Below, in pieces: positions 60,001 to 63,000 of a stretch of DNA of 63,369 nt. Position 1 is the first letter of the stretch. Each line of letters begins with the position of its first letter. Position numbers: made by a program. The stretch comes from Stx2-converting phage Stx2a_F403, in sequence record AP012529, one strand, 5' to 3'.

Positions 60001-63000
60001 CACACCAGAAATAAGTGCTGCAATCAATACCTTTTTCATTCATAGTCCTCTTTCAGAGATGAACATTCAAACAGCATTTTCAGTATGGTAAAGCGCGGGT
60101 GCGTTGAGGATGCCTGACACATCAGAGGTGGCGGGAGATTACTCCCCCGCTTGGTCTCTTACTTCTCAGATTCGTAGTCTACGAAGACAGCGACCTCCGT
60201 CTGACCGGTTCGGATTCGCACCTCGCAGAGGTCTTTCCTCGTTACCAGTGCCGTCACTATGACGGTTAAACAGATGACGATCAGGGCGATTAACATCGCC
60301 TTTTGCTGCTTCATAGCCTGCTTCTCCTTGCCTTTCGGCACGTAAGAGGCTAACCTACATGTGTTCAGCATGGATTGAGCCTCAGATTAATGTTAAGCGT
60401 CTTGCCGGACGCGTAATGTTAACTGGGGCTTTTCTCTATCTGCCGTTGGTGTTCATGCCCGAGGCAGATAGCCTCAAGCACCCGCAGCAATTCTACTTAA
60501 CTCTCCTTTTCCCGCAAACCGTTTTTATCTCCAGCGACAAATCGAATACACAACCAGCACCACCGCCATTACTGTTCCTACATTTGCGAATGCTTCAGGC
60601 CAGGTCATTGATTCACCTTCTGCTCAATATTTTTAAGGTCATTTTCCGCATACAGTATTGCAGTTCTTGCTGCCCGCAACCGTGCTTTGGTGTTCTTTTC
60701 TTCACGCTCGAGGCTGGCAACAGATTCTCGGAGCTGATCGTGTCTGTTATGAAGCTGTCTAATCTCTCTCACCACAGCCTCACCATCGTTCGCACACCGC
60801 AGAACATACTGAAAAGGGTCCACAACACATCCGCACTGCAAGCACAGGATAACGTGATCCTGTTCATGAACCTCAATGGCCCGATGCTTACAGCTCTGTT
60901 GTGTGTAGTTTTTTCTGCCAGTTACTGTAATGTTCAGCAGCTTCTCTTCATCGCGCTTTGGCTGCACCAGTGTGATGATATTATCGCCTTCATTTTCCAT
61001 CAGTTCACCTCCTGCGGCGGTTCTGGTAGCGGCATCCAGTGTGACGGTTTCCACGACGCACCAGGAATTATCCACCCATCATTAGCGTCAGGATGCCCCG
61101 GGATGTAAGTCGCCCACTTCATTCGCCAGTCACCTTTCCTGTCAAACTCCACGGCAACAAGAACGGCTGTTTTGGTATCCGGCATTCGCTCACTACAACT
61201 TATCCAACCATCCGGAGTTACCGGAGAGTTGCCAGACAGCGCATTCTGCAACCGTTCCAGCTTAACGTATTCCTGAACCCTGTTTCCGTCGCACGCCTGA
61301 AGCCATTGCTCAGCCTTTTGCGCATCAGTGTGAAAGGCACAAGTGCGACCGTCATCAAATTGCATTTCGTAGAGGTTAGCAATCTGTTCAAACTGCGTGT
61401 GTGGCAACTTGTAAGTTTGGCTTACGAGTTCGGCTTCCAGTTCTGCTATGCGCTTCTCTGATGCTTCAAGTAACGCCTGCTTATCGCGTAGCGCTTCTTC
61501 CAGTTCAGCAACATGGCATTCACTATCAATAAGGTTGTTCTCTGCTGCTCCCAGCTCAACTCTCAGCTTCCCAACCGTAAGCGCAATCTCCTCGTTCTCC
61601 TGGTCGCGGCGTTTGATGTATTGCTGGTTTCTTTCCTGTTCATCCAGCAGTGCCAGCACGGTAGCCGGGTTAGCCTCTGCTATGAATTCAGCGTTTGCAT
61701 AAGCCTGATCATCTGATTCAATCAGGCAGTTAACATGACATTCCGCAATCACGCCACCGGGTTCTCCTTTCCATTTTTGGCAAACAAAAACTCCTGTTAA
61801 ATTGCCGTGCTGGTTAACAGATGTATGCCCTACGATGTAGCTTCCTTTAGTTGCTTTCTCTGCCTTTTCACGCAGTGCCTGATAATTAATTTCGCTCACT
61901 TCGAACCTCTCTGTTTACTGATAAGCTCCAGATCCTCCTGGCAACTTGCACAAGTCCGACAACCCTGAACGGCCAGGCGTCTTCGCTCATCTATGGGATC
62001 GCCACACTCGCAACAATGAGTAGCAGATGGGGCATTACTATCGGATTTGTATTTTTGCAGGGAGAGATTGCGCTGCAATTCTTCGATTTCAGCGGCGTTG
62101 TCGATGATATCTGCCATTTTCCTTTCCTTCAGGCATGAAAAAAGGAGCCGAAGCTCCTTTGGTTTTAGAATTCGAATTGCCTTGCCCGCAGGCTTTTCAG
62201 CATTGGTCTGGCCCGCTGAACTACGAAACTCGACTGGTCAAGCCGTGCCGCCTCTCTCAGTAGCACATCTCTGTTCTTCGTCACCATGTAGATGGTCTCA
62301 AACGCAATGTCATACAGCTTGTTCGTGTATGAGGAGTTCAGCTCTTTCATGATCGGATACAGGTGTTTGCTGAGGTCCTGGGCTTTTTCCATCCAGAGTT
62401 GCATGTAGCAGAGGAGGATGATTTCCTCGTCTGTGAATTGTTGCTGTGGTTCTGCTTGTGCCGACTGCATGTTGCGAAGTTTCTTTTCGCACTCGATGAA
62501 GTATCTGCGTATCTGTCGGCCTTTTTCGTTACGCTCTACCATCGCCGTTTCTTTGGCTGTATCGAGGGTAAGGTGGTAGTCTTTTTTCCCTCGCCCATAA
62601 CCTATTTCCCGTTTCTGGGAAATAGCTATATAGTCCTGATTTTCAACGAATCCGTACTCTTCAATACGTTCTGTAATCCACGATGCAAAGCGTTTACCTA
62701 CTCCAAGAAAAGTATGTAAATCACGGGCATTAACGAGAAGAGTGGTTTCGTTGGCGATAGTGCCGTTGAATACGGGGATGCGTTGACTGGTCATGATGAC
62801 CTCCTTATTTGTTTAGTTTATAACCGCCAGTTAGTAGCTGGCGGTCGGGTGTCAACTGAGCCAAATAAGAAGCTCTGGGCATATTCCCCTTGCGGGTGTT
62901 GTATTACGCCTCTCCACCCGACCTTTGTACGGATGTAACTATGCCAAATTGCAGGCATAAAAAAGCCGCAAAGCTATCGGGTGCGGAGACCGCTTATTTG

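What the first reader, a model, noticed from the sequence alone, without database searches (positions are those of the whole stretch)
60159..60400. Canonical hok-type toxin locus next to a YdeI-like gene at the prophage right end
The 51-aa product has the full Hok architecture (transmembrane helix plus conserved Cys-containing tail). Hok loci normally carry an overlapping mok frame and an antisense Sok RNA in the leader, which would fall at about 60315..60400 here. Such a locus may stabilise the prophage or act in phage defence.
Basis: partly seen in the sequence, partly recalled or inferred. Interest (0 to 1): 0.45.

Follow-up and report, generated by a model that had tools for sequence, protein, structure and literature searches.

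The report
Known hokW/sokW toxin–antitoxin of Stx2 phage

Summary
The minus strand carries an intact 51-aa Hok peptide (60159-60314; Pfam HOK_GEF E=4e-23). An in-frame 70-aa mok extension runs to 60371. The hok leader gives a full-length Rfam hit (RF01794, 113.5 bits, 60309-60483). The window's last 25 kb is 100% identical to phage 933W (AF125520). That record annotates mokW, hokW and sokW (sokW = window 60363-60433, + strand). All 12 primer or probe sequences I tested from Takada et al. 2021 (PMC8621323) match the window exactly. That paper showed HokW toxicity, SokW antitoxin activity, both RNAs on northern blots, and a role in speeding lysis and phage release after induction. I also found every hok-family RNA element. 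tac (60472-60483) pairs with fbi (60097-60109). ucb pairs with the mok SD, a dcb is present, and there is a SokW promoter, hairpin and U-tail. The only data on function point to lysis assistance, not to stabilisation or defence. One small difference is not discussed in the paper I read. hokW lacks the terminator that follows fbi in hokD-type relatives, so it probably reads into the YgiW/YdeI-like gene. Verdict: already known, low interest.

The parts
60490..60518 (-). hokW promoter (inferred): -35 TTTGCG at 60518-60513, a 17-nt spacer, -10 TAGAAT at 60495-60490. The transcription start is inferred at 60483.
   Evidence: Read directly from the sequence. The -10 hexamer is conserved in hokD-type relatives (alignment A1). 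In relative L004 the scan finds TTGGCG-17-TAGAAT ending 7 nt before the start of its Rfam hit. The window scan did not report this promoter because its -35 is weak. None of the text I read reports a mapped transcription start.
60088..60483 (-). hokW mRNA core, about 396 nt, equivalent to the full-length hok mRNA of R1. The 5' end is set by the Rfam model start. The 3' limit is where homology to other hok cassettes ends.
   Evidence: Rfam model position 1 aligns at 60483. Homology to hokD-type loci stops at window 60087. The MFE is -158.8 kcal/mol, z=-6.8 against shuffles.
60472..60483 (-). tac element (GGGUGCUUGAGG) at the mRNA 5' end.
   Evidence: In the full-length MFE it forms 12 pairs with fbi, with one bulged C. 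In the truncated or nascent RNA it instead forms a local 11-bp hairpin, 60455-60481, -18.8 kcal/mol, z=-4.5.
60425..60431 (-). ucb / anti-SD box (AAGCCCC).
   Evidence: It pairs with the mok SD in the full-length MFE. It can pair with tac in the truncated RNA at only +2.1 kcal/mol above the MFE.
60380..60383 (-). mokW Shine-Dalgarno sequence (GAGG), 8 nt upstream of the mokW AUG.
   Evidence: Read from the sequence. Its pairing probability is about 1.0 in the full-length fold. It lies inside the SokW-complementary stretch.
60159..60371 (-). mokW CDS, 70 aa, in the same frame and with the same stop as hokW.
   Evidence: ORF list. Annotated as mokW in AF125520. The ATG is conserved in all full-length relatives, while the next 4 codons are hypervariable.
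60346..60350 (-). dcb box (GCCUC), complementary to the mok SD region GAGGC.
   Evidence: When the tac/ucb stem is enforced in the truncated RNA, positions 101-105 (the SD) pair with 134-138 (this box).
60324..60329 (-). hokW Shine-Dalgarno sequence (AAGGAG), 9 nt upstream of the hokW AUG.
   Evidence: Read from the sequence.
60159..60314 (-). hokW CDS, a 51-aa membrane toxin.
   Evidence: Pfam HOK_GEF E=4.3e-23. Annotated as hokW in AF125520. Toxicity and inner-membrane localisation were shown for a locus whose tested primers all match this window (PMC8621323).
60131..60150 (-). 3'-UTR stem-loop (GCGGGGGA-GUAA-UCUCCCGC). It probably protects the 3' end of the processed mRNA.
   Evidence: An 8-bp hairpin appears in both the full-length and the truncated folds. 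Relatives change both arms here: GGGGGAG.../...CTCCC versus GAGGGAG.../...CCCTC. The protective role is inferred from the R1 model (PMC9841398).
60097..60109 (-). fbi element (CCUCAACGCACCC), which pairs with tac.
   Evidence: It is conserved in relatives. The R1-type locus has matched changes on both sides: tac GGCGC with fbi GCGCC there, against GGGUGC with GCACCC here.
60328..60356 (+). sokW promoter: -35 TTGCCT at 60328-60333, a 17-nt spacer, -10 TAACCT at 60351-60356.
   Evidence: Read from the sequence. Primer YO-421 of the paper's promoter-less mutant replaces exactly this -10 hexamer. That mutant lost the protection that the sokW-bearing plasmid otherwise gave against arabinose-induced HokW.
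60363..60433 (+). sokW antisense RNA, 71 nt. It has a 14-nt single-stranded 5' tail, a long hairpin and a UUUU tail. It is complementary to the mokW SD, AUG and first codons.
   Evidence: Annotated as misc_RNA in AF125520. Fold energy -29.9 kcal/mol, z=-4.95. The paper states a 71-nt complementary stretch, and its sokW probe YO-592 maps to 60363-60392.
59695..60039 (-). L0136, a YgiW/YdeI (BOF) family periplasmic protein gene directly downstream. It is probably co-transcribed with hokW.
   Evidence: Pfam BOF E=5e-33. No terminator-like or promoter-like site lies between hokW and this gene. Co-transcription is inferred.
59657..59679 (-). First terminator-like site downstream of hokW on its strand.
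   Evidence: Terminator scan: 9-bp stem followed by a T-rich tail.

Best explanation
This is the hokW-mokW-sokW type I toxin-antitoxin module of a 933W/Sp5-family Stx2a prophage. It works like hok/sok of plasmid R1.

A weak constitutive promoter makes a stable hokW mRNA. In its full-length form the 5' tac element pairs with the 3' fbi element. The ucb box then masks the mokW ribosome-binding site, so the mRNA is neither translated nor bound by the antisense RNA. Slow 3' trimming removes fbi. tac then pairs with ucb, or with its local partner. The mokW start region becomes available, and hokW is translated by coupling to mokW.

In a lysogen this is prevented by SokW, an unstable 71-nt antisense RNA made from its own promoter inside the leader. 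SokW pairs with the mokW SD and start codon. Per the published work, this is helped partly by Hfq and RNase III. When SokW disappears after RecA-dependent prophage induction, the 51-aa HokW peptide is made. It inserts into the inner membrane, arrests growth and helps lysis. About twice as many phage are released.

Shown by others on a locus whose tested primers all match this window: toxicity, the antitoxin role of SokW, detection of both RNAs, membrane localisation, dependence on induction, and the effect on phage release. Shown here by computation: every sequence and structure element. Inferred from R1: 3' processing, the refolding pathway and mok-hok translational coupling.
For: Identity: window 38370-63369 is 100% identical to AF125520 36671-61670. 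mokW, hokW and sokW are annotated there at positions that map to window 60159-60371, 60159-60314 and 60363-60433. All 12 primer or probe sequences I tested from PMC8621323 match the window exactly.

Protein: Pfam HOK_GEF E=4e-23.

RNA: Rfam RF01794 scores 113.5 bits across the whole model. In the full-length fold tac pairs with fbi and ucb pairs with the mok SD, z=-6.8. In the truncated RNA an enforced tac/ucb stem costs only 2.1 kcal/mol and brings about SD/dcb pairing by itself. SokW folds into a tail, a hairpin and a U-tail, z=-4.95.

Experiments: arabinose-induced HokW stops growth. SokW from its own promoter, or supplied in trans, relieves this. A mutant of the sokW -10 hexamer abolishes the protection. 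The effect depends partly on RNase III and Hfq. SokW is lost and HokW-3FLAG appears after mitomycin C only in recA+ cells. The deletion mutant shows growth arrest about 40 min later and releases about half as many phage.

The R1 mechanism is as summarised in PMC9841398.
Against: The 5' and 3' ends of hokW mRNA, its processing and mok-hok coupling have not been mapped for this locus. The paper itself says it is unclear whether the two shorter RNAs it saw are the truncated form. RNase III and Hfq mutants lose protection only partly.

hokW has no terminator after fbi, unlike its relatives. The true full-length transcript may therefore be longer than the R1-like 396 nt, and activation by 3' trimming may differ.

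Thermodynamic folding of the truncated RNA favours the local 5' hairpin and keeps the mok SD paired. Prediction alone does not demonstrate the open state.

The 2-fold effect on phage release is modest and comes from a single study in a K-12 lysogen.
Confidence: 0.9

Rival explanations
1. Prophage maintenance by post-segregational killing. A cell that loses or excises the prophage without completing lytic growth keeps stable hokW mRNA but loses short-lived SokW, and so is killed. This is the classical R1 role, and it is the role written in the 933W GenBank note.
For: The AF125520 note reads 'prophage maintenance'. All RNA elements needed for delayed activation are present. HokW is produced only after induction or excision-type events.
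Against: This was never tested for hokW. Deleting the locus had no effect on growth under normal conditions, and the measured phenotype was a gain in phage release. An integrated prophage is lost far more rarely than a plasmid, so selection for killing cured cells would be weaker. This last point is inference.
Confidence: 0.25
2. Abortive-infection defence of the lysogen against other phages. A superinfecting lytic phage shuts off host transcription, SokW decays, and HokW kills the cell before the invader completes its cycle.
For: R1 hok/sok on a high-copy plasmid reduced T4 plating by 42% and plaque size by about 85%, as cited in PMC8621323. The architecture here is the same.
Against: There are no data for hokW. 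The authors stress that it has the opposite, pro-phage effect. The R1 effect was weak and came from a multicopy plasmid.
Confidence: 0.15
3. An inactive relic, as suggested by the product name 'RelF inactive antibacterial toxin protein' in several phage records and by the truncated hokD of K-12.
For: That product name appears in the PA-series phage records. K-12 hokD does lack the leader, mok and sok.
Against: The ORF is intact and all regulatory elements are present. Toxicity and regulation were shown experimentally on a locus whose tested primers all match this window.
Confidence: 0.01

Closest known systems
hokW/mokW/sokW of phage 933W (GenBank AF125520) and Sakai prophage Sp5 (Takada et al. 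2021, PMC8621323)
   Same: Everything. The 461 bp around the locus, and the whole last 25 kb of the window, are 100% identical. The annotated coordinates map one to one. The published primers and probes I tested match exactly.
   Different: Nothing in the locus itself. The window as a whole is a mosaic relative: it is 1699 bp longer than 933W, and its middle part is closer to Stx2a_F451 and Min27.
hokD (relF)-type chromosomal and P1-like/IncY plasmid hok loci of E. coli
   Same: These are the closest paralogues. DNA identity is 87-95% from the promoter to just past fbi. The Hok peptide is 92% identical. tac, fbi, ucb, the in-frame mok ATG and the Sok promoter and hairpin are the same. The Rfam scores are about the same, 114-115 bits.
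   Different: The 4 codons after the mok ATG are hypervariable. This stretch lies opposite the single-stranded 5' tail of Sok, and I infer it to be the specificity region. The relatives carry an intrinsic terminator right after fbi, but hokW does not and runs into the BOF gene. K-12 hokD is a truncated copy with no leader, mok or sok.
hok/sok (parB) of plasmid R1, the founding member
   Same: The gene order and every named element are the same: tac, fbi, ucb, dcb, an in-frame mok, a Sok promoter inside the leader, and a 3' stem-loop. The same Rfam family is hit, at 87 bits. Hok is 44% identical, with the conserved LCE(I/V)R motif.
   Different: DNA similarity is confined to short blocks. The SokW terminator hairpin is about 19 nt longer. 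The carrier is a temperate phage rather than a plasmid. The reported role is helping phage release rather than plasmid stabilisation. There is no terminator after fbi.

Membership tests
hok/sok type I toxin-antitoxin family | A small (about 50 aa) Hok/Gef peptide with an N-terminal transmembrane helix and a conserved Cys-containing periplasmic tail | tested here: met
   Pfam PF01848 covers profile positions 1-42 of 42, E=4.3e-23. The peptide is 44% identical to R1-type Hok and 92% identical to HokD.
hok/sok type I toxin-antitoxin family | A mok reading frame that starts upstream of hok, has its own SD and overlaps hok | tested here: met
   A 70-aa ORF at 60159-60371 is in frame with hok, with GAGG 8 nt upstream of its ATG. 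The R1-type locus has the same in-frame layout. The ATG is conserved in relatives. Translational coupling itself was not tested.
hok/sok type I toxin-antitoxin family | A cis-encoded antisense Sok RNA with its own promoter, complementary to the mok translation-initiation region | tested here: met
   The promoter is TTGCCT-17-TAACCT. The 71-nt RNA at 60363-60433 has a 5' tail, a hairpin and a U-tail. It is annotated as sokW. It was detected by northern blot, and a mutant of its -10 hexamer lost the protection that the sokW-bearing plasmid gave.
hok/sok type I toxin-antitoxin family | A conserved hok mRNA leader (Rfam RF01794 covariance model) | tested here: met
   113.5 bits against a gathering score of 59, model positions 1-157 of 157, E=4.7e-25. 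The model matches the hok-sense strand.
hok/sok type I toxin-antitoxin family | Long-range tac/fbi pairing between the 5' and 3' ends that closes the full-length mRNA | tested here: met
   The MFE contains 12 pairs between 60472-60483 and 60097-60109, z=-6.8. The R1-type locus shows matched changes on both sides. This is a prediction only, with no structure probing.
hok/sok type I toxin-antitoxin family | ucb and dcb boxes that allow a switch from ucb/SD-mok pairing (closed) to tac/ucb plus SD-mok/dcb pairing (open) | tested here: met
   ucb AAGCCCC pairs with the SD in the full-length fold. When tac/ucb is enforced, the SD pairs with GCCUC at 60346-60350, at +2.1 kcal/mol above the MFE. The complementarity is shown. 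The switch itself is inferred.
hok/sok type I toxin-antitoxin family | A defined mRNA 3' end just after fbi (terminator), and activation by 3' exonucleolytic trimming | tested here: not met
   There is no terminator-like site between fbi and the next gene, and the region is unstructured, z=0.39. The relatives do have a terminator there. Trimming cannot be tested with these tools. This concerns the exact 3' architecture, not membership, which the published experiments establish.
hok/sok type I toxin-antitoxin family | Toxicity of Hok and its neutralisation by Sok in vivo | not testable with these tools
   Shown by Takada et al. 2021 on a locus whose tested primers all match this window.

The most novel reading that the evidence does not exclude
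The 3' and upstream wiring of hokW differs from plasmid and chromosomal hok loci in a way that could explain why HokW appears only on prophage induction. hokW has lost the cassette's own terminator, so it is fused transcriptionally to the YgiW/YdeI-like gene. It also lies at the far end of an all-minus-strand block (about 63042 to 59657) with no convincing terminator. After excision and circularisation, that block sits directly downstream of int and the N-antiterminated pL transcript. Read-through from pL would run head-on into the sokW promoter and silence it. It would also produce hokW RNAs with foreign 5' ends, which cannot form the tac/fbi lock. The module would then act as an excision or induction sensor. 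This would answer the question that Takada et al. left open.
Probability: 0.15. Interest if true: 0.4.

Novelty: already known. Interest (0 to 1): 0.08.

Why it matters
It matters little as a discovery. The locus is annotated as mokW/hokW/sokW in the GenBank record of phage 933W, and its function was tested in 2021. It is useful as a positive control: the first-stage reader recognised a type I toxin-antitoxin locus correctly from raw sequence. Biologically, the module slightly increases the release of a Shiga-toxin-converting phage. Its regulation therefore bears on the spread of Stx phage and on toxin release. How prophage induction removes SokW is still an open question, though a narrow one.

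Tried and rejected
1. I first expected mok to lie in a different frame from hok, from my memory of the R1 sequence. The R1-type locus I fetched shows that mok is in frame there too, so the in-frame mokW is canonical and not a variant.

2. I considered whether the Rfam 'sok' hit on the minus strand meant that Sok is on the same strand as hok. It does not. The 157-nt model covers the hok-sense leader from +1 to the hok AUG, and it does the same in R1-type and hokD-type loci. The real Sok gene is on the opposite strand.

3. The simple promoter scan did not report either the hokW or the sokW promoter in the window. I assigned both by homology, and for sokW also from the published -10 mutant. I could not confirm the hokW transcription start.

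4. I looked for a terminator or a stable structure after fbi and found none.

5. Thermodynamic folding of the 3'-truncated mRNA did not open the mok SD on its own. The R1-like open state appeared only when tac/ucb pairing was enforced.

6. I did not run the large protein-database, structure-prediction or metagenome searches. Identity with a characterised locus made them unnecessary.
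Full report
**Observation**

The finding gives no strand; the gene is on the minus strand. The ORF list shows a 70-aa ORF at 60159-60371(-). Its last 51 codons start at the ATG at 60314 and read MKQQKAMLIALIVICLTVIVTALVTRKDLCEVRIRTGQTEVAVFVDYESEK.

- The 51-aa peptide matches Pfam PF01848 (HOK_GEF) over the whole profile, E=4.3e-23.
- It is 92% identical to K-12 HokD/RelF and 44% identical to the R1-type Hok. The 44% figure is the one published for HokW.
- I wrote the R1-type Hok sequence from memory. A tblastn search then found it at 99% identity or more in over 2,600 plasmid records, with the top listed hits 100% identical and most annotated as Hok family toxin.
- The downstream gene at 59695-60039(-) is a BOF/YgiW/YdeI family protein, E=5e-33.
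- A gathering-threshold Rfam scan of the whole window gives a full-length hit to RF01794 'sok' at 60309-60483, at 113.5 bits and E=4.7e-25.

**What it is**

- A 461-bp query around the locus is 100% identical to many Stx-phage records. These include 933W (AF125520) and VT2-Sakai/Sp5 (AP000422), where the features under the match are named mokW, hokW and sokW.
- The last 25 kb of the window equals AF125520 36671-61670, and the first 9 kb equals AF125520 1-9000. The window is therefore a complete 933W-family Stx2a prophage running from attL to the attR core. Its middle part is closer to Stx2a_F451 and Min27.
- Mapping the AF125520 features (window coordinate = locus coordinate + 57039) gives mokW 60159-60371(-), hokW 60159-60314(-) and sokW 60363-60433(+).
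- A full-text search found Takada et al. 2021 (PMC8621323), which studied this locus in Sp5. All 12 primer or probe sequences I tested from that paper match the window exactly. Among them are the sokW probe (60363-60392) and the primer that destroys the sokW -10 hexamer.

**Published function**

- HokW expressed from pBAD arrests growth.
- SokW relieves this, whether made from its own promoter or supplied in trans. A mutation in the sokW -10 hexamer abolishes the protection.
- Protection depends partly on RNase III and Hfq.
- Both RNAs are seen on northern blots in the lysogen.
- After mitomycin C, SokW disappears and HokW-3FLAG appears in the inner membrane, about 1 h before the endolysin. 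This requires RecA.
- Deleting the locus delays growth arrest by about 40 min and halves phage release.
- The authors state that the step which removes SokW is unknown. They also state that they do not know whether the shorter hokW RNAs they saw correspond to the processed R1 form.

**Anatomy tested here**

- Full-length RNA. I folded 60483 to 60088 (396 nt). The MFE is -158.8 kcal/mol, z=-6.8. The first 12 nt (tac, GGGUGCUUGAGG) pair with CCUCAACGCACCC (fbi, 60097-60109). AAGCCCC (ucb, 60425-60431) pairs with the mokW SD region GAGGC (60379-60383).
- Truncated RNA. With the fbi region removed, the 5' end refolds into an 11-bp local hairpin. This corresponds to the metastable tac hairpin described for nascent hok mRNA.
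- Open state. When I enforce the tac/ucb stem in the truncated RNA, the energy is only 2.1 kcal/mol above the MFE. The freed SD then pairs with GCCUC at 60346-60350, which is a dcb box.
- SokW. It folds into a 14-nt single-stranded 5' tail, a long hairpin and UUUU (z=-4.95). Its promoter is TTGCCT-17-TAACCT at 60328-60356. It is complementary to the mokW SD, AUG and first codons.

All defining RNA elements are therefore present as sequence complementarity. The refolding pathway and the mok-hok coupling remain inferences from R1.

**Comparison with relatives**

- About 3,900 of 5,426 complete E. coli genomes hold a copy that covers at least 80% of the query, and most best matches fall in the 90-95% identity band. 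These are usually annotated hokD. P1-like and IncY plasmids hold copies at about 87% identity.
- In an alignment of five relatives, the -10 hexamer TAGAAT (TACAAT in the IncY plasmid), tac, ucb, the mok ATG, the Sok promoter and fbi are conserved in the four full-length copies. K-12 hokD keeps only the CDS and the 3' part, including fbi.
- The four codons after the mok ATG are hypervariable. This stretch lies opposite the single-stranded 5' tail of Sok. I infer that it sets the specificity between co-resident hok/sok pairs.
- K-12 hokD has no leader, mok or sok, and gives no Rfam hit. hokW is thus an intact version of what survives as a stump in K-12.
- The R1-type locus shares the same order of elements. 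Its mok is also in frame with hok, and its tac/fbi differ from hokW on both sides in a matched way.

**One real difference**

- In hokD-type relatives, fbi is followed within about 10 nt by an intrinsic terminator, AACCCGCTTCGGCGGGTTTTT. By eye, the R1-type and IncY copies also have a hairpin there, although the scan reports none on the hok strand in either.
- In hokW, homology to every other hok cassette stops at window 60087.
- The following 48 nt are unstructured (z=0.39) and run straight into the RBS of the BOF gene.
- The only terminator-like site on that strand is at 59679-59657, beyond that gene.
- hokW mRNA is therefore probably co-transcribed with L0136, unless a 3' end is made by processing. 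The paper does not discuss this in the parts I read. It is a detail, not a new kind of system.

**Speculation kept separate**

All genes from about 63042 down to 59657 are on the minus strand. The scan finds no convincing terminator among them: the single hit at 60847-60831 is weak, and the number of hits is below the shuffle expectation. int is at 29-1363(-). After excision, the circular genome places this block directly downstream of the pL-int transcript. Read-through could then collide with the sokW promoter and could yield hokW RNAs that lack the tac 5' end. That would explain the RecA- and induction-dependence. I give this idea a probability of about 0.15. The report that SokW disappears immediately after mitomycin C addition, while the hokW band stays constant, does not obviously favour it.

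**Verdict**

The Sok position was about 40 nt off. The suggested roles (stabilisation, defence) remain untested for this locus, and the one published role is help with lysis and phage release. The locus is already annotated in the 933W GenBank record and has been characterised experimentally (2021). Novelty: already known. Interest: 0.08.

Noticed in passing
window 60525-60608 (-): There is an unannotated 27-aa hydrophobic ORF, MTWPEAFANVGTVMAVVLVVYSICRWR. Its ATG overlaps the stop codon of L0139 (ATGA), and it lies just upstream of the hokW promoter. It is missing from AF125520 and from a PGAP-annotated genome. tblastn finds it at 54-81% amino-acid identity in other lambdoid phages, where some records call it a hypothetical protein. 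It may be a real small membrane protein.
   Followed up: partly
window 60040-60096 (-), junction at 60087: hokW lacks the intrinsic terminator that follows fbi in hokD-type relatives. Homology to all other hok cassettes ends at 60087, and the sequence then runs into the YgiW/YdeI-like gene L0136. The first terminator-like site on that strand is 59679-59657. This implies a hokW-L0136 co-transcript.
   Followed up: partly
window 60309-60483 (-): Rfam family RF01794, named 'sok antitoxin', matches the hok-sense strand (the leader from +1 to the hok AUG) here and in R1-type and hokD-type loci. A hit therefore marks the hok leader, not the strand or extent of the Sok RNA.
   Followed up: yes
window 60355-60368 (-) and alignment A1 columns 325-345: The four codons after the conserved mok ATG differ in every relative, while the flanks are nearly invariant. 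This stretch lies opposite the single-stranded 5' tail of SokW. It probably sets the specificity between the several hok/sok copies per genome. The median number of matching places per genome is 2, and the maximum is 10.
   Followed up: no
window 62835-62923 (-) and 63013-63042 (-): An sRNA-Xcc1 (RF02221) hit at 69 bits lies between a strong promoter-like site (TTGACA-18-CATACT) and the antirepressor-like gene L0142, close to attR. It could be a 5' leader or an sRNA at the head of the right-end leftward gene block that ends with hokW and L0136.
   Followed up: no
window 19430-19626 (+), 24476-24735, 7899-7957 (-): There are other Rfam hits typical of Stx phages: c4-a1b1 / isrK / C4 antisense RNA, STnc100, AsxR (anti-stx2 sRNA) and the lambda cIII thermoregulator. 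There are also three tRNAs at 22819-23067.
   Followed up: no
whole window: The window is 1699 bp longer than phage 933W. Its first 9 kb and last 25 kb are identical to 933W, and its middle 25 kb matches Stx2a_F451 best, and Min27 at 99.5%. It is a mosaic member of the 933W family. I did not locate the extra DNA.
   Followed up: partly
L008 (E. coli DH1/K-12, hokD-relBE region): K-12 hokD keeps only the coding region and the 3' part, including fbi and the terminator. Everything upstream of the hok SD is replaced by the relE 3' flank, and there is no Rfam leader hit. Some phage records label the intact hokW as 'RelF inactive antibacterial toxin protein', which is misleading.
   Followed up: yes
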